This document shows, piece by piece, positions 4,715 to 53,060 of a DNA stretch of 64,000 nucleotides. Positions within the stretch are counted from its first letter, which is position 1. Each line of letters opens with the position of its first letter. The position numbers and the translations under genes were made by a program. Under the pieces are notes generated by a model. The model was not told the origin of the DNA, did no database searches, and saw nothing but the letters and a program-made list of their open reading frames with translations. The DNA comes from a virus: IMG/VR virus record IMGVR_UViG_3300013000_000010, positions 23,160-87,159 of that record; one strand, 5' to 3'.

Positions 4715-4845
4715 GTAGTGATCACATTAATGATCACTATCGCAGCTAACGCGCCGTTTTGGTGCCTTACTAATGGACAAAACCGGAATATGTGGTACTT
4801 TGATTGCTCGTTCGTAGTATGAAATTAACCACTGGATAAAATTAA

Positions 4846-7691: not shown

Positions 7692-8275
7692 TACACCAGC
7701 CTCCAGTCGCTTGCGAGAAGATCCGTTGAGGCTGGCGCCCAGTCGGAAACCGTTAGCTTTTCGGTATCAATGAGCAAAAGCTGGGGCATCTGCGTTACGG
7801 CCACATCTTGGCTGCAATCAAAGTAGCGGGCCGGTACGCCATACATATCTGATCCATTCAGTGCTGCGCGTGTCAGCCCTCTGGTGAGGCGCAGATGAAC
7901 ACCCTTCCCCCATGCTGCCCGCGCCACTTTGCAGCCCTCTGACAGCCACAGCTGCGCGACCGCCAGCGGTGCTTGCTCCTGCCTGAAACTCAGTTCGCCG
8001 GTATCAATCATCGCTTCGTTGCGCAGGATAAGATCATTCAGCTTAATCAGCGCGGCACAGGCGGCGTGGTTCAGGGTTTCGCCAAAACCGGTCATTGTCA
8101 GGCCGCTTTTGCTGATAACGGCTGCGTATCCGTCAGTTTTGGTCTCAGAAGTCTCTGTAATGGTGTATCCCAGGCGGGCAATGACAGCCAGCAGCGCCAT
8201 GTAATCGCCTGCATAGTCGGCTTCTGCGTCTGCAATCATGGCGATCGTTGCATTCAATTGTTGAGCGGTCATCAT
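7691..8275 (-). CDS. Two-domain protein: phage ABA-sandwich-like N-terminus plus Tad2/DUF2829-like C-terminus
   Basis: C-terminal KVARAAWGKGVHL ... DWAPASTDLLASDW matches the DUF2829 pattern; N-terminal GETLNHAACAALIK resembles ABA-sandwich domains. Confidence 0.65.
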   Translation of the reverse strand: MMTAQQLNATIAMIADAEADYAGDYMALLAVIARLGYTITETSETKTDGYAAVISKSGLTMTGFGETLNHAACAALIKLNDLILRNEAMIDTGELSFRQEQAPLAVAQLWLSEGCKVARAAWGKGVHLRLTRGLTRAALNGSDMYGVPARYFDCSQDVAVTQMPQLLLIDTEKLTVSDWAPASTDLLASDWRLV

Positions 8276-12478: not shown

Positions 12479-12536
12479 ATTGAGAATCAGATCCGCGTGT
12501 AATTTGCGGCGGATGATAACTCGAAATTAACCACTG

Positions 12537-12554
12537 TCTAAGGTTTTTCTTAGA
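12537..12554. promoter_or_regulatory. Operator-like palindrome over the pmgS promoter
   Basis: TCTAAG-GTTTTT-CTTAGA overlapping a minus-strand TTAGAC-17-TATCAT. Confidence 0.55.
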
Positions 12555-12916: not shown

Positions 12917-13434
12917 CAGCTGATAACTACCCAGTCGCTGACGCGCATATCGTTAATGCTCAGTTCGTGTATCTCAACGCCGCCGTCCGGTCGGGTCAGT
13001 ATCAGCACGTCACAGCCTTCATGCTCCTGCTCAAGCGACACAAAGTAACCCGCCTCCCACGCTTCCCGGCGCATCAGCAATTCCGGATCCTCTTTCATCT
13101 TCAGCAAGGCGCGGTCATAGCTGCACGTAATGGCACCGATTCCAATTTTGCTCAAACCTTCGATCTGTGCCGTCGTCATGCGTCCGCGTCCTTCTGTTAA
13201 TGATTTTCTCAAGATGTAACTGATCCCCTTCACGCCGCCGAAATAGTTCAGCTGGCGGTTACTCATGCCGCTGCGCGACATAAGCTCCTGCTTCGGTACT
13301 TTGAAAATGCCGACGTCCATAGCCATGTCGGCAAAAACCGAAAGCCCACGGCCCAAGCCGTCGCGCGTCTTTTTACGGCGCGCATACTGCTCAAAGGTGG
13401 GGCATCCGGTAAAAAACTGCGCGTCAAAAAGCAC
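12916..13434 (-). CDS. TetR-like HTH fused to a Tad2/DUF2829-like domain
   Basis: ELMSRSGMSNRQLNYFGG (HTH); YDRALLKMKEDPELLMRREAW ... ELSINDMRVSDWVV (DUF2829 pattern). Confidence 0.55.
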   Translation of the reverse strand: MLFDAQFFTGCPTFEQYARRKKTRDGLGRGLSVFADMAMDVGIFKVPKQELMSRSGMSNRQLNYFGGVKGISYILRKSLTEGRGRMTTAQIEGLSKIGIGAITCSYDRALLKMKEDPELLMRREAWEAGYFVSLEQEHEGCDVLILTRPDGGVEIHELSINDMRVSDWVVIS

Positions 13435-22178: not shown

Positions 22179-23876
22179 TTGGCTACTAAAAATAAGGCAC
22201 TGTCTGTTTTAAGCGCATTGAGGCAGGCATTCCGGGGCGCGGCAGCAGAAGCACCACAAAGCCTCGCATGGACCAACGGACAGAACGTGGTCGTCTCGCG
22301 CTCCGGGCTGGCGGCAATGGCCTACAAAGAGGGAAATGCGGGGGAAATGACTTCCGCCGGCGACAGTCTTTTCCTGGGCGCGGAGCTGCCGCTGGACAGG
22401 CTGCAGCGCTATGCGATTCTGGAAGAAATGGCGAATAGCCCAACGTGCTCAGCCGCTCTGAATATCCACATTGGCCACGCACTCGCGCCGGACAAAAAAA
22501 CCGGGCTGGCGTTCTCTATTGTGCCGGTTGACCCGTCCGACGCAGAAGGCGCGGCGCGGGCCAAAGAGCTACAGGATGATTTGGGCGCGATGATTAACCG
22601 ACACCTGCCGTCGCTGGCTATGACAATGGCGATTTTCGGCGTGTCCTATGTGCGCCCTTATGCCCGCTCAGGGAAAGGGATCACCAGCCTGGAAAATAGC
22701 TATTACTCGTTGCCCTACTTCATTCAGGAGTTTTACAAAGGCGATCAGCTGGTGGGCTTCGGCGGGGACTATGTGCTTTCGCCAGACACCCATACCCGCA
22801 CACTATCTACGCCGTGGTCTCTGGTCCCGATGAAAAATCCGTACTGGACCCCGACGCGCAACGTTCAGCCCGTGACGTCCGGCAATCGTGGTTACTCTCT
22901 GCTATCAGAGGAAGAGGACAAGGAGGTTGCGGAGACGCAGAATTACGGCACCAGCTTCCTGGCGCATGCCTATGAGCCTTTCCTGAATCTGGTCGGCGCG
23001 CTGAATGCGCTGAAGGCAACGCGCTACAACGCCGCCAAAATTGACCGCCTGATTGCCCTGACAACCAACTCACTCGATCCGGTTGTCGGTGCGAACTACA
23101 CCCGCACTGTGTCGCAGACGCTCAAGCGCCACGGCGAAGCACTCCAGAAAAAAGCGGTTAACGGCAACACTATGCCAACCGTGATGAACCATGTGATCCC
23201 GGTGATGGGAGACGGTAAAAACGGCATTACGATCGACACGCAGTCGATACCCGCGGACATTACCGGCATTGAGGACGTGATGTTTCACCTGCGCCAGCTG
23301 TGCGCTGCGCTCGGTATCGACTCGACTATGCTGGGGTGGGCCGATCAGATGGCGGGCGGGCTGGGTGAAGGCGGCTGGATTCAGACGGCTATACAGGCGG
23401 CACTCCGGGCGCAGTGGCTGCGACAGGGCGCGCAGGAAATGATTTACCGGCTGATCGATATTCACCTGGCGTTCAAATACGGCAAGGTTTACCCGGTTAA
23501 GGATCGGCCCTATGTAGTTCAGTTCAACTCGATGAACACCGCCATTCAGGAAGAAGAAAGCCGCGAAATGGACGCCCGCGCCAACTTCATTACCCTGATG
23601 GTGCAGGTCATGGATGCGCTGCAGGCCAACAACAAGCTGGCGGAGAACGACACATTCATGCGCTACCTGTTCAGTGATCAGCTGAAGATGGACGGCGACA
23701 CGCTCGACAAAATGCTGGCGGAGTTTGAGAAGAGCAGGAAGAAAGCGGACGCTCAGGAGGATGAGGGCGGCGGCAGCATGATGAATGAATCTGCTCCTGA
23801 CGGCAGTGATCCGGCCAGCTGGTCCCGTGAAGAACTCATAGCCTTTGCTCGTTTTGTAACCTCACCAGACAAATAA
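22179..23876 (+). CDS. prt: Portal protein
   Basis: 565 aa; divergent from darB and upstream of the protease as in P1. Confidence 0.85.
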   Translation: MATKNKALSVLSALRQAFRGAAAEAPQSLAWTNGQNVVVSRSGLAAMAYKEGNAGEMTSAGDSLFLGAELPLDRLQRYAILEEMANSPTCSAALNIHIGHALAPDKKTGLAFSIVPVDPSDAEGAARAKELQDDLGAMINRHLPSLAMTMAIFGVSYVRPYARSGKGITSLENSYYSLPYFIQEFYKGDQLVGFGGDYVLSPDTHTRTLSTPWSLVPMKNPYWTPTRNVQPVTSGNRGYSLLSEEEDKEVAETQNYGTSFLAHAYEPFLNLVGALNALKATRYNAAKIDRLIALTTNSLDPVVGANYTRTVSQTLKRHGEALQKKAVNGNTMPTVMNHVIPVMGDGKNGITIDTQSIPADITGIEDVMFHLRQLCAALGIDSTMLGWADQMAGGLGEGGWIQTAIQAALRAQWLRQGAQEMIYRLIDIHLAFKYGKVYPVKDRPYVVQFNSMNTAIQEEESREMDARANFITLMVQVMDALQANNKLAENDTFMRYLFSDQLKMDGDTLDKMLAEFEKSRKKADAQEDEGGGSMMNESAPDGSDPASWSREELIAFARFVTSPDK

Positions 23877-23939: not shown

Positions 23940-24197
23940 TCAGTGCAGAAGCGAAATAACCTGCCAGTCGGCTGACAAAATATCTTCAGGTGTTGGATCA
24001 TAAATTGATAACGCGCCGGACTCGCCCATGAATATAAATTGCATCTGGCTGTCTGAGTCGGCCTGCGTAAATACGTGAATAGGTTTATCACCCCATTTGG
24101 CACGGCGACAGATGCTACTGTCTGTCTGGCTTATGGCAAGCATGGCATTGGCGAACCTAAGCACTGCCTGGGACGGCGTATAAGGGATATCAGGCAT
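23940..24197 (-). CDS. Stand-alone Tad2/DUF2829-like protein (85 aa; start at 24197)
   Basis: CRRAKWGDKPIHVF ... YDPTPEDILSADWQV; GAGGAG RBS 6 nt before ATG. Confidence 0.7.
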   Translation of the reverse strand: MPDIPYTPSQAVLRFANAMLAISQTDSSICRRAKWGDKPIHVFTQADSDSQMQFIFMGESGALSIYDPTPEDILSADWQVISLLH

Positions 24198-24330
24198 GGA
24201 GTGCTCCTCGTACAAAAGGAAGCGTCACTACGGGAGGTTCCAATCTCCGGGTGGTGACGTTGACAGGGTTGGAACTACCGGCGTACGAGGAGACCGGCCT
24301 ACCCGAAGGTAGCCCCGCCAACGCCACCAT
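24190..24330 (-). CDS. Ash/Icd-family leader peptide (46 aa)
   Basis: MVALAGLPSGRPVSSYAGSSNPVNVTTRRLEPPVVTLPFVRGALHA; stop overlaps the next start (ATGCCTGA). Confidence 0.7.
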   Translation of the reverse strand: MVALAGLPSGRPVSSYAGSSNPVNVTTRRLEPPVVTLPFVRGALHA

Positions 24331-24434
24331 TGAAACATCTGGCAAACTCCAGACGTGGTAGCGCCGGAGGCACTAAGTGCCTCCTCGTACATTCGTTCGG
24401 GGTTCCAATCCCGACCACTGTTTTACAGTGGCGC
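24320..24434 (-). ncRNA. C4/CI-type antisense RNA
   Basis: Multi-branch fold with CGGG-ATTGGAAC-CCCG loop and GTACGAGGAG, complementary to downstream CTCCTCGTAC (24283-24292) and GTTCCAACCC (24266-24275). Confidence 0.75.
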
Positions 24435-24438
24435 GCAC

Positions 24439-24466
24439 ACTATATCCCCGGCGCGGATAAATTCAA
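24439..24466 (-). promoter_or_regulatory. Promoter of the C4-ash-tad2 cassette
   Basis: TTGAAT-16 bp-TATAGT. Confidence 0.6.
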
Positions 24467-24533
24467 TATTTCTAATATGAAATTATCCACTGGTTATTAG
24501 ATCCACTGATAATCGAAGAATCGCTACCCCGAT

Positions 24534-24624: not shown

Positions 24625-25626
24625 ATGGAAGCACTCCGTACGGTGACGGATCGTTTTTCATTGATTGATAAAATTCGTCGATTTACTCCACAGAATGATC
24701 GCAACTACCTGCTGCGCTCTGTCCGCGAGACGTTCGCCAGCCTCGAAACTCTGGAGAGAATCCAGCTGGGGGAAATGTTCGGATATTACGGCCACGGACG
24801 TCGCGCCGCCTATTACGCTAAGACCGGGCGGCTCAATCTGCCGGAATTTGCGGTTGTCATGGTTGATGGGAAACCGGTGACGCTGGAAAACGTACCGTCT
24901 AACCGTACGCTGGATGTCAGCGTGGACGATAACGGCATTGTGACTCACGTTCAGGAGATTCTGGACACTGAACCTGGCAACATCGTTGACGGCATGAACC
25001 GTTCCCGCGCTGGTGGCTGGTCGTGGGCGACAGGTGGTGATGATAACGCCATTTCCAAAGTGACCAGTTTCCACGGCTTCGATTATGTGACCAATCCGAA
25101 CTACATCAGTCAGGATCACCCTGCTCTGCTGCTGGAGTCGGCCAGCGAACGCGCTGACGCTATGCACGCGGGCCTTATTGAAAAGGGGTATTCGGAGAAC
25201 CAGACGGCCGACATTATCCAGCATTTTGAAACCCTGCGCGGCCAGGCGGCAATGCTGGAGTCTGCGGATTCTTCGCTGATGGAATCTGCGCTTCACATCG
25301 AGCATGGAAAGCGTTTGGAGCTGGAGGAACGTCTGCGCAACGCGCAGCTGATGATCGAGAGTGCAGGTACTGTTGCAAAGGCGCGCCGCCGGATTATGAA
25401 GGATGCGCTGGCTAACATGCCGCTGTTTTTAAGTAAAGCCCAGCAGGCGGCACTATGCCGGATGGACACGCCGGAAGATGCGCAGATCGTCGCGGCAATG
25501 CTGGAATCAATCGGTACAAATGCGACGGCCACGCTGCCGATCGGAACCGCCCACCAGCACGCATTACCAGAGACGCGCCCGCCAGCCGTAGACTCAGCAC
25601 CGCTGCTGTGGATTAACACACGATAA
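24625..25626 (+). CDS. pro: Prohead protease
   Basis: 333 aa; YYGHG and GGWSWA catalytic-like motifs; repeated MLES processing motifs. Confidence 0.85.
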   Translation: MEALRTVTDRFSLIDKIRRFTPQNDRNYLLRSVRETFASLETLERIQLGEMFGYYGHGRRAAYYAKTGRLNLPEFAVVMVDGKPVTLENVPSNRTLDVSVDDNGIVTHVQEILDTEPGNIVDGMNRSRAGGWSWATGGDDNAISKVTSFHGFDYVTNPNYISQDHPALLLESASERADAMHAGLIEKGYSENQTADIIQHFETLRGQAAMLESADSSLMESALHIEHGKRLELEERLRNAQLMIESAGTVAKARRRIMKDALANMPLFLSKAQQAALCRMDTPEDAQIVAAMLESIGTNATATLPIGTAHQHALPETRPPAVDSAPLLWINTR

Positions 25627-25989: not shown

Positions 25990-26880
25990 GTGTCTATAGT
26001 AGCTAAAAGCGCCGATCCCGGCAACACTTTTCCCGCATTTCGCTCAAATAACGAGCACAGTTCTGTCCGAATTACAGGCTTTGATCTCACCCATATTATC
26101 GAACTTTCCCCCCTCCCGAAGTCAGTTACCCGTGTCTTAAAATTCGCCTGCAATCTGGCCGGTTCCACGTCCGATTTCATTATCATCAAATCGCTCAGGA
26201 ATCTGGCCGAAGAAGCCGGTTGCAGTATCTCTACAGTTCAGCGTGCTTATCGTGCTGCAGTCAAGCTGGGGATCCTCAACTATGAAGAGCAGCGTGACGA
26301 GAAAAATCACAGCGTCAGCAAGCCCAGTAAATACACGTTTACCAATAAAGCGCTGTCCTTTGTCCGGGCCAGCCTGGAAGCCCTGAAAGAGGCAAATCTG
26401 AAGCCGTCAGGACGCCAGACCATAGTCCGGAGAGTTATCGCTAAGGCATTCTTTAAAAACGATTTTATCCACAGCACCCCTAGTCAGAATGAACAGGCTC
26501 CCCCTGGTCAATCTGACCAACAAGAATTAAGAGATCCCTCCAGTAAAAGAGAAATACAAAATGGGAAGCCATTAAATTCTGTGGTTGAAAAATCGTCAGA
26601 TCCTCAACCGGCCGCGGTGAAAAAATTCGGGCTCTACCAGAACACGCAAAAGCAGCTGGCGGCTGCATCGTCAGCAGCGCAGAACGAACGTAGCGCTGAA
26701 GAGTTTCAGCGAAAAGGCGGTGTACTGCATGAAGCCTATCAGGCGCTGAAGTCTACCTTCAGGGCAAAGCCTGCTGGTGGCATTAAGCCGAAAGGCCGCC
26801 GCTACTCTGACCCATTGAGCGGCAGCTTTTCGGCGGGTGTGGATTACTCTGTCATACCTGAAGGCTTTCGAGGCTGTTAA
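25990..26880 (+). CDS. repL: Lytic replication initiator RepL
   Basis: HTH LAEEAGCSISTVQRAYRAAVKLGIL; TPSQNEQAPPGQ; C-terminal IPEGFRG as in P1 RepL (IPAGFRG). Confidence 0.85.
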   Translation: MSIVAKSADPGNTFPAFRSNNEHSSVRITGFDLTHIIELSPLPKSVTRVLKFACNLAGSTSDFIIIKSLRNLAEEAGCSISTVQRAYRAAVKLGILNYEEQRDEKNHSVSKPSKYTFTNKALSFVRASLEALKEANLKPSGRQTIVRRVIAKAFFKNDFIHSTPSQNEQAPPGQSDQQELRDPSSKREIQNGKPLNSVVEKSSDPQPAAVKKFGLYQNTQKQLAAASSAAQNERSAEEFQRKGGVLHEAYQALKSTFRAKPAGGIKPKGRRYSDPLSGSFSAGVDYSVIPEGFRGC

Positions 26881-52963: not shown

Positions 52964-53060
52964 GCGGTGTGAGGGTGGCAAGAAAAGATTTTAAAATCTA
53001 AGGAAAATATTTATTTTTTGATGTACCTTTCCGCCATGTAATTGACCACTGGTAATCCTC

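What the first reader, a model, noticed from the sequence alone, without database searches (positions are those of the whole stretch)
23940..24466. C4-type antisense switch drives a Tad2-like anti-defence gene instead of an antirepressor
Seen: promoter, then a C4-like RNA carrying GGATTGGAAC and GTACGAGGAG, then complementary targets (24283-24292, 24266-24275) inside a 46-aa Ash/Icd-like ORF, then a second copy of both elements (24237-24245, 24204-24213) in which GTACGAGGAG contains the RBS of the next gene. The ash stop overlaps that start (ATGCCTGA). Known: in P1 immI this architecture gives a burst of icd-ant expression on entry and silence in lysogens. Known: Tad2/DUF2829 proteins sequester immune signals (gcADPR for Thoeris; some homologues bind cyclic nucleotides). 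Inference: the entry timer has been repurposed to express an immune-signal sponge just after infection, and the target can pair with either C4 or the sponge RBS, forming a switch.
Basis: partly seen in the sequence, partly recalled or inferred. Interest (0 to 1): 0.78.

Follow-up and report, generated by a model that had tools for sequence, protein, structure and literature searches.

The report
Antisense-RNA switch gating a Tad2-like gene
A Pantoea P1-like phage-plasmid carries the classic phage P1 "C4" antisense-RNA switch, but its only cargo is a small protein with the fold of Tad2, a phage sponge for bacterial immune signals, rather than the usual cell-division inhibitor and antirepressor; this pairing is conserved in relatives and I found no paper on it.

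Summary
The C4 RNA is the middle element (24334-24247, minus strand; Rfam RF01695, 81.8 bits). The upstream copy (a1 24411-24402, b1 24390-24381) and the downstream copy (a2 24245-24237, b2 24213-24204) are its targets. This is the P1 immI layout. b2 holds the Shine-Dalgarno sequence 6 nt before the ATG of an 85-aa gene (24197-23940). That gene passes Pfam Tad2-like (31.6 bits). Its model (pLDDT 90.5) matches only solved Tad2 structures.

The 90.7-kb phage has one C4, no other predicted C4 target, and no detectable Icd, Ant, Rha, Bro-N or KilAC homologue.

Across 34 loop variants the C4 loop and b2 covary. All 12 checked loci of Tad2-like homologues at 29-35% identity also sit behind a C4. Their leaders are near-identical and similarity stops at the start codon.

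Whether the protein is a sponge is unproven. Three main ligand contacts are kept (W, Y/F, D) and others are not. The same subfamily forms the C-terminal domain of phage D6's C4-controlled antirepressor, so a role in the immunity circuit is a serious rival.

Earlier notes of this scan flagged C4-linked Tad2-like domains on other DNA. Verdict: a new variant of a known kind.

The parts
24478..24493 (-). Operator-like 16-mer CCAGTGGATAATTTCA. It is one of 7 dispersed copies of CCAGTGG(T/A)(T/C)AATT(T/C)CA in the 90.7-kb genome and a candidate site for the C1-like repressor. A second, half-related copy lies at 24493-24508.
   Evidence: 3 matches in the window against 0.12 expected; 7 in the genome. 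A C1-like repressor gene is present. Function is inferred.
24439..24466 (-). Sigma-70-like promoter TTGAAT-16-TATAGT. The predicted transcript start is near 24432.
   Evidence: It is conserved in relatives. Not shown experimentally.
24376..24432 (-). a1/b1 leader (decoy or upstream target). It has a first hairpin, a second hairpin that presents a1 (AUUGGAAC, 24409-24402) in its loop, and b1 (UGUACGAGGAG, 24391-24381), which partly lies in a third hairpin.
   Evidence: Rfam c4-a1b1 RF03163, 40 bits (gathering score 46.7), and isrK, 31.6 bits (gathering score 50). Exact repeats of a2/b2. The b'/b1 duplex is -23.5 kcal/mol.
24247..24334 (-). C4 antisense RNA. It has a 17-bp outer stem and a UUCG hairpin. 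A second hairpin has b' (CUCCUCGUAC, 24292-24283) as its loop. A single-stranded a' (GUUCCAA, 24275-24269) follows.
   Evidence: Rfam RF01695, 81.8 bits, E 1.7e-14, model 1-87/87. MFE -44.8 kcal/mol, z -4.64. 12 of 23 stem pairs show compensatory double changes in 27 relatives.
24199..24252 (-). a2/b2 target. a2 (AUUGGAAC, 24244-24237) sits in a hairpin loop. b2 (UGUACGAGGAG, 24214-24204) ends in GGAG, which is the Shine-Dalgarno sequence 6 nt upstream of the ATG.
   Evidence: The b'/b2 duplex is -19.9 kcal/mol. Loop and b2 covary across 34 loop variants.
23940..24197 (-). 85-aa Tad2-like gene (P0001), the only gene of the operon.
   Evidence: Pfam PF11195, 31.6 bits against 25. AF2 pLDDT 90.5. 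The top 24 Foldseek PDB hits are all Tad2 family, TM 0.62-0.76. BFVD hits are Tad2-like.
24190..24345 (-). 'Ash' reading frame (51 codons from TTG, 46 from ATG 24330). It overlaps the whole C4 RNA and a2/b2, and its stop TGA overlaps the Tad2-like start. Its coding status is doubtful.
   Evidence: Pfam Phage_ASH, 34 bits against 26. The frame is open across C4 in 69 of 75 loci, but its end point varies.

Best explanation
This is a complete P1/P7 immI-type antisense cassette: promoter, a1/b1 leader, C4 RNA, a2/b2, first gene. Its only cargo is a Tad2-fold protein.

Inferred mechanism, by analogy with P1. The operon transcript carries the C4 RNA. Once C4 is cut out and has accumulated, its b' loop and a' stretch pair with a2/b2. 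This covers the Shine-Dalgarno sequence and blocks translation of the Tad2-like gene. The gene would therefore be made mainly in the short period after DNA entry, before C4 builds up, and stay silent in the plasmid-prophage state. Silencing would also act in trans on a superinfecting phage of the same C4 specificity. The upstream a1/b1 copy can occupy the same C4 loops. It may act as a co-transcriptional decoy or as an IsrK-like small RNA that sets the timing.

The protein most likely keeps the Tad2 ligand pocket and soaks up a host nucleotide immune signal during establishment. The ligand is unknown.

Shown here: the RNA family, the complementarities and their covariation, the protein fold, the conserved pairing of C4 with this gene, and the absence of detectable icd/ant homologues.

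Inferred only: processing of C4, the timing, any ligand binding, and any anti-defence effect.
For: The C4 hit is full length at 81.8 bits, and its stems covary.

The b' loop is a perfect 10-11-nt complement of b2, which contains GGAG 6 nt before the ATG. Among 34 distinct b' loops from 80 viral contigs, 31 have 8 or more contiguous pairs with their own b2, against 14% of mismatched combinations. Within the Pantoea clade, b', b1 and b2 change together.

The genome holds only one C4, and no other a/b site pair. No Icd, P1-Ant, ANT/KilAC, Bro-N, Rha or Coi homologue was detected.

The protein passes PF11195 above its cut-off. The model has pLDDT 90.5. Foldseek hits with E < 0.02 are exclusively solved Tad2 proteins. 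SPO1 Tad2 ligand contacts W25, W73 and D79 (bioRxiv 10.1101/2023.05.01.538930) align with invariant W35, Y/F66 and near-invariant D72.

All 12 checked loci of homologues at 29-35% identity have C4 just upstream. Their leaders are 88-95% identical and similarity ends at the start codon. This looks like cargo-allele exchange on a fixed regulatory platform.

The gene diverges much faster than, and independently of, the C1-like repressor and the pro gene, as host-interaction genes typically do.

RNA-library contigs from four studies cover parts of the leader, C4 and the gene, and one of them spans almost the whole gene (weak evidence).
Against: There is no experimental evidence for C4 processing, for repression, or for any ligand.

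Several SPO1 Tad2 contacts are not kept: N26 is G36, T78 is E71, H71 is S64.

The same subfamily, with its (I/V)CRRxxW and PxDxxxxDW motifs, forms the C-terminal domain of D6's Rha-type antirepressor. The same phage also has two larger proteins containing DUF2829 domains. The fold may therefore serve regulation or oligomerisation here.

A C4-silenced sponge would be poorly available during induction from the lysogen.

Close relatives L070 and L018 carry a frameshifted copy, so the gene is dispensable.

In the MFE fold of the unprocessed leader, b' pairs with b2 in cis, so even the first transcripts may be partly self-repressed.
Confidence: 0.45

Rival explanations
1. The RNA switch is the same, but the Tad2-fold protein is the effector of secondary immunity itself. 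It could be a minimal antirepressor that binds the C1-like repressor. It could also be a ligand-sensing or oligomerising regulator of the lysis-lysogeny decision. On this reading it stands in the place of icd/ant rather than replacing them with an anti-defence function.
For: In the survey, the first genes behind C4 are mostly icd-like or antirepressors: 29 icd-like and 7 Rha, Bro-N or P22_AR_N types. This phage has no other recognisable antirepressor. D6's C4-controlled Ant ends in a domain homologous to the whole of P0001 (BLASTP E 3e-7; hhalign E 3e-5). Every member of this Tad2-like subfamily that was checked sits behind a C4. Some canonical ligand contacts are missing.
Against: Tad2-like identity does not track C1 identity. 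One relative has C1 100% identical but Tad2-like 72% identical and frameshifted. Another has C1 at 82% and Tad2-like at 30%. W35, Y/F66 and D72, the equivalents of the main ligand-stacking and polar contacts, are conserved across the stand-alone subfamily. The D6 domain has lost the aromatic residue. No Tad2-fold antirepressor is known.
Confidence: 0.3
2. A decayed immI region. The ancestor had C4-icd-ant and the cargo was lost or replaced. C4 persists, and the Tad2-like gene is a passenger whose control by C4 has little biological meaning.
For: Cargo downstream of b2 is highly variable, and the breakpoint lies exactly at the start codon. Some relatives carry frameshifted copies. Extra unrelated genes, including a PtuA-like ATPase with an HNH protein, follow in some relatives.
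Against: The leader, C4 and both target pairs are intact and nearly invariant across relatives whose cargo is only about 30% identical. b', b1 and b2 covary inside this very clade, which requires ongoing selection on the pairing. The association holds in every locus checked.
Confidence: 0.12
3. A type I toxin-antitoxin-like addiction module. The small protein would be toxic (RefSeq labels relatives 'MW1434 family type I TA system toxin') and C4 would be the RNA antitoxin that stabilises the plasmid-prophage.
For: The RefSeq product names of relatives. Gene control by an antisense RNA. P1 Icd, which sits at the equivalent position, is growth-inhibitory (PMC11897509, abstract).
Against: NCBIfam release 20 gives no hit for P0001. 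Newer names for the cluster are 'Thoeris anti-defense Tad2 family protein'. The protein is soluble with an alpha/beta Tad2 fold, not a membrane peptide. C4 is a highly structured RNA (ΔG -44.8 kcal/mol), unlike the labile antitoxin RNAs needed for post-segregational killing.
Confidence: 0.05
4. The upstream element is the antisense RNA. The middle stretch is a translated Ash/Icd-like leader ORF that carries the targets and is translationally coupled to the Tad2-like gene.
For: The ORF passes Pfam Phage_ASH. Its stop overlaps the next start (ATGCCTGA). The frame is open across C4 in 69 of 75 loci.
Against: The middle stretch is a full-length, covarying C4 RNA. The upstream element matches the Rfam a1b1-target model. 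The end of the Ash frame falls at +8, -1, -16 or in-frame in different Tad2-type loci. The c4 repressors of P1 and P7 were published as antisense RNAs (Citron & Schuster 1990, as cited in PMC8198154).
Confidence: 0.03

Closest known systems
immI operon of phages P1 and P7 (a1/b1 - c4 - a2/b2 - icd - ant1/ant2); Rfam C4 RF01695 and c4-a1b1 RF03163
   Same: Same order of elements and same RNA family (81.8 bits). The two-site (a', b') recognition is the same, and b2 covers the ribosome-binding site of the first gene. An upstream duplicate of the targets is present. A C1-like repressor is encoded in the genome, and an operator-like motif lies next to the promoter. P1-like relatives RCS47 and vB_EcoM-673R5 show the canonical C4-icd-ant/roi arrangement.
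   Different: The cargo is one 85-aa Tad2-fold gene. No icd or ant homologue was detected anywhere in the phage. The cassette lies between the portal (prt) and head-processing (pro) genes on the opposite strand, next to the dar-type genes. In P1 itself (from my own knowledge of P1, not checked here) immI lies upstream of kilA-repL, and in RCS47 the cassette lies next to c1.
Tad2 (Thoeris anti-defence 2; SPO1 gp34.65, ModTad2, SptTad2, HgmTad2/AcrIIA7; Pfam PF11195/DUF2829)
   Same: Same size and the same alpha1 plus beta-sheet fold (TM 0.62-0.76, probability 1.0). It passes the Pfam cut-off. The equivalents of W25, W73 (here Y/F), P75, D79 and D84-W85 are conserved.
   Different: Only 15-20% identity. 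The N26, T78, H71 and D67 equivalents differ. It has subfamily-specific invariant C30-R31-R32 and H41. It is always found behind a C4 RNA. No binding or anti-defence data exist. Tad2 family members bind very different signals (gcADPR, His-ADPR, N7-cADPR, cCMP/cUMP, cGG; bioRxiv 10.1101/2025.08.24.671296; PDB entry titles 8wjd and 8kbk), so the ligand cannot be predicted.
Phage D6 immI-like operon (C4 - icd-like - Rha-type Ant with a C-terminal Tad2-like domain)
   Same: The same Tad2-like subfamily ((I/V)CRRxxW ... PEDxxxxDW) lies under a C4-type operon in a P1-related phage-plasmid.
   Different: In D6 the domain is the tail of a 313-aa Rha-type antirepressor behind icd, and it lacks the Y/F66 and P68 equivalents. 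Here it is a stand-alone first and only gene.
Gifsy-1 isrK-orf45-anrP locus of Salmonella (PMC4825925)
   Same: A leader with two hairpins and a weak terminator-like hairpin precedes the C4-type RNA. The isrK model matches below threshold (31.6 bits). The idea that a short leader RNA can act in trans on the long isoform to switch translation is relevant to the a1/b1 element.
   Different: Below the Rfam gathering score (50). The downstream genes in Gifsy-1 are orf45 and an antirepressor that leads to AntQ. No evidence here for a separate short RNA.

Membership tests
P1/P7 immI C4 antisense system | C4 RNA gene matching the covariance model with its three-helix fold | tested here: met
   RF01695, 81.8 bits against a gathering score of 45, model 1-87/87. 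The MFE fold matches the consensus. The stems covary.
P1/P7 immI C4 antisense system | a' and b' in C4 complementary to a2/b2 downstream, with b2 over the RBS of the first gene | tested here: met
   b'/b2 form 10-11 bp and a'/a2 form 7 bp. GGAG of b2 lies 6 nt before the ATG. Family-wide covariation.
P1/P7 immI C4 antisense system | Upstream duplicate a1/b1 in the same transcript | tested here: met
   Exact repeats at 24411-24402 and 24391-24381. The Rfam c4-a1b1 score of 40 bits is below its gathering score of 46.7.
P1/P7 immI C4 antisense system | Cargo icd followed by antirepressor ant1/ant2 | tested here: not met
   No match to Icd, P1-type Ant, ANT/KilAC, Bro-N or Rha in the complete 90.7-kb genome. 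The operon ends against the convergent portal gene.
P1/P7 immI C4 antisense system | C4 processed from the operon transcript and repressing in trans | not testable with these tools
   Only RNA-library contigs covering the region are available. They show no ends or levels.
P1/P7 immI C4 antisense system | Promoter under C1 repressor control (Op51 type) | tested here: inconclusive
   A C1-like gene is present (24% identity, E 1e-12). A dispersed 16-mer occurs 7 times in the genome, with one copy 12 nt upstream of the -35. Binding is not shown.
Tad2 / DUF2829 (PF11195) | Sequence match above the Pfam gathering score | tested here: met
   31.6 bits against 25, residues 15-81 on profile positions 3-73/73.
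Tad2 / DUF2829 (PF11195) | Tad2 fold (N-terminal helix plus antiparallel sheet) | tested here: met
   AF2 pLDDT 90.5. PDB hits 1-24 are all Tad2 proteins, and the next hit has E 0.097. BFVD hits are Tad2-like.
Tad2 / DUF2829 (PF11195) | Ligand-contact residues of SPO1 Tad2 (W25, N26, W73, D79, plus T78, H71, S76, D67) | tested here: inconclusive
   W25 aligns with W35, W73 with Y/F66, D79 with D72 and S76 with T/S69, all kept. N26 aligns with G36, T78 with E71, H71 with S64 and D67 with S60, all changed.
Tad2 / DUF2829 (PF11195) | Homotetramer that sequesters an immune signal and cancels Thoeris, Pycsar or CBASS defence | not testable with these tools
   Needs biochemistry and plaque assays.
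Ash protein family (PF10554) | A translated protein-coding gene | tested here: inconclusive
   The ORF scores 34 bits against 26. The matched part is the C4 RNA gene. The frame is open in 69 of 75 loci but its ends vary, and in 29 loci it runs in-frame into the icd-like gene.
MW1434-family type I TA toxin (RefSeq label of relatives) | Match to a curated NCBIfam model | tested here: not met
   No NCBIfam family matches at E <= 1. Current cluster names are 'Thoeris anti-defense Tad2 family protein'.
IsrK sRNA (RF01394) | Match at or above the gathering score | tested here: not met
   31.6 bits against 50.

The most novel reading that the evidence does not exclude
The C4-linked Tad2-fold subfamily (stand-alone here, fused to the Rha-type antirepressor in D6) may not be a passive anti-defence sponge. 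It may be the working part of secondary immunity: either a new class of antirepressor, or a sensor that binds a host immune or stress nucleotide and feeds that information into the phage's lysis-lysogeny decision.
Probability: 0.25. Interest if true: 0.85.

Novelty: new variant of a known kind. Interest (0 to 1): 0.6.

Why it matters
How temperate phages time their anti-defence genes is hardly known. A Tad2-type gene wired to the best-understood antisense "entry timer" would give a concrete, testable case. The sponge would be made only while the incoming genome is vulnerable. It would then be shut off so that the lysogen keeps its own signalling immunity against other phages.

If the protein instead turns out to be the immunity effector, the Tad2 fold gains a second function, and P1-like phage-plasmids gain a new kind of antirepressor.

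The strict pairing also makes the cassette a useful search handle. The leader is conserved and the cargo is swapped exactly at the start codon, so the cassette can be used to find early-expressed accessory genes in P1-like, D6-like and other temperate phages.

Tried and rejected
- Megablast of the region against the phage collection found nothing. Only six plasmid records (five Pantoea, one labelled Acinetobacter) share it.
- phmmer of P0001 against PDB sequences found nothing. A profile search gave only marginal Tad2 hits (E 0.012-0.06). Fold comparison was needed.
- The first viral-contig pattern scan failed because I had the loop length wrong by one base. The corrected scan worked.
- RNAcofold and duplexfold of whole C4 against the targets gave uninformative results, because loop-loop (kissing) contacts cannot be modelled. 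I used short-segment duplex energies instead.
- PADLOC has no model for the Tad2-like proteins or for the small extra genes of relatives.
- PHROGs gave only marginal hits for P0001.
- RNA-library runs are kept as contigs only, so they cannot show ends, strand or level. That two studies' contigs stop at 24411 is no more than a weak hint. Uncovered parts are not evidence.
- I tried to read the operator-like motif as overlapping a second promoter but found no convincing -35 by eye, so I left it as 'operator-like'.
- The L136/L137 context at first looked like a P2-type phage. However, its 240-aa neighbour is pro-like, so I make no claim that the module moves between phage types.
- No paper in the held library mentions C4 antisense RNA together with Tad2 or DUF2829.
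Full report
**What the window is.** The window is part of a complete 90,665-bp IMG/VR virus record with terminal repeats. It is about 91% identical, over the queried kilobase around the cassette, to ~90-kb Pantoea agglomerans plasmids such as pPA-MXU-90. Those plasmids carry P1-type genes: portal, head-processing protein, DarB-like SNF2 protein, ddrA, lpa, Ref, a maturation control protein (P1 mat-like) and Cre-like recombinase. The window therefore comes from a P1-like phage-plasmid. The finding lies on the minus strand, in the 750-bp gap between the portal gene (22179-23876, +) and the head-processing gene pro (24625-25626, +).

**Checking the observation.**
- GGATTGGAAC: 24411-24402
- GTACGAGGAG: 24390-24381 and 24213-24204
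- CTCCTCGTAC: 24292-24283
- GTTCCAACCC: 24275-24266
- GATTGGAAC: 24245-24237
- ATGCCTGA at the junction of the overlapping ORF and the 85-aa gene

A promoter-like site, TTGAAT-16-TATAGT, lies at 24466-24439. In the whole genome the 10-mer GTACGAGGAG occurs only at these sites. The repeats are therefore real and specific.

**Which element is the RNA.**
- Rfam places a full-length C4 antisense RNA (RF01695, 81.8 bits, gathering score 45) at 24334-24247.
- It folds into the family's shape. There is a 17-bp outer stem, a UUCG hairpin, a second hairpin whose loop is b' (CUCCUCGUAC), and a single-stranded a' (GUUCCAA) (z = -4.6).
- In 27 relatives, 12 of 23 stem pairs show compensatory double changes.
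- The upstream element matches Rfam's model of the a1/b1 targets (RF03163, 40 bits, below its gathering score of 46.7, local E 8.5e-9). It matches isrK more weakly.

The order is therefore promoter, a1/b1, C4 (b', a'), a2/b2, gene. This is the published P1/P7 immI layout. In P1, C1 represses the c4-icd-ant operon and the C4 antisense RNA is needed for full repression of ant (PMC8198154 and its reference to Citron & Schuster 1990).

**The target and the gene.** b2 ends in GGAG, 6 nt before the ATG at 24197. Both a1 and a2 present AUUGGAAC in the loop of a short hairpin (sequence). Short-segment duplex energies are:
- b'/b1: -23.5 kcal/mol
- b'/b2: -19.9 kcal/mol
- a'/a1 and a'/a2: -8.8 kcal/mol each

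The upstream copy is therefore at least as good a partner as the RBS copy.

**Covariation of loop and target.** I fetched 80 viral contigs sharing the C4 core.
- They hold 34 different b' loops.
- 31 of the 34 have 8 or more contiguous pairs with their own b2 at the expected place. Only 14% of mismatched loop/target combinations reach this.
- Inside the Pantoea clade the three elements change together. The window has CUCCUCGUAC with GUACGAGGAG. pPSP-26e and pEuc3 have UUUCUUGUGC with GCACAGGGAG or GCACAAGGAG at b2, and GCAUGAGAG (pPSP-26e) or GCAUGAGAA (pEuc3) at b1.

This is direct comparative evidence that the pairing is under selection in this lineage.

**The cargo protein.** The 85-aa product (P0001) passes Pfam Tad2-like (PF11195, 31.6 bits against 25).
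- A 23-sequence alignment gave an AlphaFold model with pLDDT 90.5.
- Its 24 best PDB matches are all solved Tad2 proteins: SPO1 Tad2, ModTad2, SptTad2 and HgmTad2/AcrIIA7. TM-scores are 0.62-0.76, and the next hit has E 0.097.
- Viral predicted structures give the same answer.

Using the HMM alignment to SPO1 Tad2 and its published gcADPR contacts, the residues map as follows:

| SPO1 Tad2 | This subfamily | Status |
|---|---|---|
| W25 | W35 (invariant) | kept |
| W73 | Y/F66 | kept as aromatic |
| P75 | P68 | kept |
| S76 | T/S69 | kept |
| D79 | D72 | kept |
| D84-W85 | D77-W78 | kept |
| N26 | G36 | changed |
| T78 | E71 | changed |
| H71 | S64 | changed |
| D67 | S60 | changed |

The core of the pocket is kept and its periphery is not. 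Tested Tad2 homologues sequester very different signals (gcADPR, His-ADPR, N7-cADPR, cCMP/cUMP, cGG; and the PDB entry titles). No ligand can be named for this protein.

**What is missing.** The genome has a single C4 and a C1-like repressor (24% identity to RCS47 C1, E 1e-12). It has no detectable Icd, P1-type Ant, KilAC/ANT, Bro-N, Rha or Coi homologue. By contrast, the P1-like phages RCS47 and vB_EcoM-673R5 have C4 followed by icd and ant/roi. In this phage the Tad2-like gene is therefore the only predicted target of C4.

**How general the pairing is.** In the survey (biased towards this C4 subtype), 75 of the 81 loci, counting the window itself, had a callable first gene after b2:
- icd-like: 29 loci
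- Tad2-like: 19 loci
- Rha, Bro-N or P22_AR_N antirepressors: 7 loci
- an unknown 123-aa protein: 5 loci
- the rest were singletons

A phmmer scan of 1.8 billion representative proteins found only 21 relatives of P0001. I looked up eight of the short ones (29-35% identity). All 12 loci recovered, plus L055, carry a full-length C4 about 50-115 nt upstream of the start. In the five leaders I aligned (window, L055, L128-L130), the promoter, a1/b1, C4 and a2 are near-identical to the window. Similarity stops at the start codon (L132 against the window is 88% identical over the leader). The regulatory platform is thus conserved while the cargo allele is exchanged or evolves very fast.

Tad2-like identity across relatives is uncoupled from identity of the C1-like repressor and of pro:

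| Relative | C1-like | pro | Tad2-like |
|---|---|---|---|
| G009 | 100% | 98% | 72% |
| G007 | 82% | 90% | 30% |

Two contigs carry a 1-nt deletion that breaks the reading frame at codon ~10.

**Why the sponge reading is not settled.** tblastn of P0001 weakly hit phage D6's annotated antirepressor. Pairwise BLASTP (E 3e-7) and hhalign (E 3e-5) show that residues 241-312 of this 313-aa Rha-type Ant are homologous to the whole of P0001. The match includes the subfamily motifs (I/V)CRRxxW and PEDxxxxDW. That Ant follows an icd-like gene in an immI-like operon.

Earlier notes of this scan had reported such C4-linked Tad2-like domains in D6-like plasmids. They had also noted that those domains lack half of the ligand contacts. 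I verified the D6 homology and saw that the D6 domain lacks the Y/F66 and P68 equivalents.

This subfamily is therefore tied to C4 operons in two architectures. That fits two pictures. It may be an early anti-defence function riding on the entry operon. It may instead be part of the antirepressor machinery.
- For the sponge picture: fast evolution independent of C1, and the retained W/Y/D triad.
- For the machinery picture: the absence of any other antirepressor, and the fusion in D6.

I put the sponge reading at about 0.45 and the immunity-effector reading at about 0.3.

**Mechanism.** Steps marked "inferred" rest on analogy with P1 and IsrK.
1. Transcription starts near 24432 (inferred). An operator-like 16-mer, one of seven dispersed copies in the genome, lies just upstream of the -35. 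It may allow control by the C1-like repressor.
2. The nascent RNA makes a1/b1 first. These can occupy C4's loops as C4 emerges, leaving a2/b2 and the SD free for a first round of translation (inferred). Without such a competitor, the MFE fold pairs b' with b2 in cis.
3. C4 is released and accumulates, as in P1 (inferred). It then pairs with a2/b2 on later transcripts and on transcripts of superinfecting phages of the same specificity. This covers the SD (complementarity shown; repression inferred).
4. A weak terminator-like hairpin followed by UGUUU lies just before C4, and the isrK model matches below threshold. This raises the possibility of a separate short a1/b1 RNA that titrates C4. It would be analogous to short IsrK activating the long isoform in Gifsy-1 (PMC4825925).

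RNA-library contigs from four studies cover parts of the leader, C4 and the gene. Contigs from two studies end at 24411. This is compatible with transcription but proves nothing about ends or levels.

**The 'Ash' ORF.** The frame across C4 hits Pfam Phage_ASH above its cut-off and is open in 69 of 75 loci. Its stop lies at +8, -1 or -16 relative to the next start, or it continues in-frame. In the 29 icd-like loci it is continuous with icd. The conserved core of that Pfam family coincides with the C4 RNA gene. I found no support for a coupling role and treat the frame as unproven.

**Novelty and verdict.** The RNA switch is a textbook system and the protein belongs to a known family. What is new is the combination. 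The C4 cassette has a Tad2-fold protein as its sole cargo, and the phage has no detectable icd or ant. Every relative I checked from this Tad2-like subfamily keeps this pairing. No paper in the held library mentions C4 together with Tad2 or DUF2829. The scan itself has flagged related cases before. I class this as a new variant of a known kind, of moderate to good interest, with clear experiments available.

Noticed in passing
L128:2750-5165, L132:2836-5251, L136:2846-5252, L138:2808-5207, L055:4336-6735: In several relatives the C4-gated Tad2-like gene is followed, on the same strand, by a 509-516-aa ATPase (PADLOC PDC-M01A / PtuA-like, E about 1e-184). In L128, L132 and L136 the protein after the ATPase, of about 290 aa, was typed as HNH (PDC-M01B in L132 and L136). 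This is a candidate Septu-like defence pair next to a presumed anti-defence gene. Whether the pair shares the C4-controlled transcript is unknown.
   Followed up: partly
window 24190-24345 (-) and loci L014-L093: The conserved core of Pfam Phage_ASH (PF10554) coincides with the C4 RNA gene. In 29 icd-like loci the 'Ash' frame runs in-frame through C4 into the icd-like gene, producing long ORFs that match the 202-position profile of PHROG 6928 ('transcriptional repressor'). The protein family may largely be a translation of a structured RNA gene.
   Followed up: partly
genome 901, 4455, 6700, 27979 (window 4820-4835), 35681 (window 12522-12537), 47637 (window 24478-24493), 76196 (window 53037-53052), all minus strand: Seven dispersed copies of an asymmetric 16-mer, CCAGTGG(T/A)(T/C)AATT(T/C)CA, often followed by CATAT/CATAC. 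The pattern resembles the scattered asymmetric C1 operators of P1. These are candidate operators of the C1-like repressor.
   Followed up: partly
L070:860-1190 (-), L018:3160-3490 (-): Two contigs from different samples carry the same 1-nt deletion at codon ~10 of the Tad2-like gene (CCCAGGCAG becomes CCCA-GCAG). One of them, G009, has a C1-like repressor 100% identical to this phage. It is either a pseudogene or a programmed or assembly shift.
   Followed up: partly
L131:2281-3222 (phage D6 Ant): D6's annotated antirepressor is a Rha-type N-terminal domain plus a C-terminal 72-aa domain homologous to the whole stand-alone Tad2-like protein of this window.
   Followed up: yes
window 7694-7948 (-) and 12922-13122 (-): Two further PF11195 domains lie in the same phage, inside larger open frames of 242 and 172 aa (41 and 23 bits). 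This gives three DUF2829 paralogues in one 90-kb genome.
   Followed up: no
window 25990-26880 (+): The 296-aa HTH_36 protein beyond pro corresponds to genes called PF26868 Phage_P1_RepL in relatives (L132, L135, L138). The C4 cassette therefore lies one gene away from repL. In P1 (from my own knowledge) immI lies near kilA-repL.
   Followed up: no
L008:4303-4611, L010:3987-4466: Other relatives have different small genes of unknown function (102 aa; 159 aa) between the Tad2-like gene and the portal gene. They have no Pfam or PADLOC hits. The pro-prt gap behaves as a variable accessory-gene slot.
   Followed up: partly
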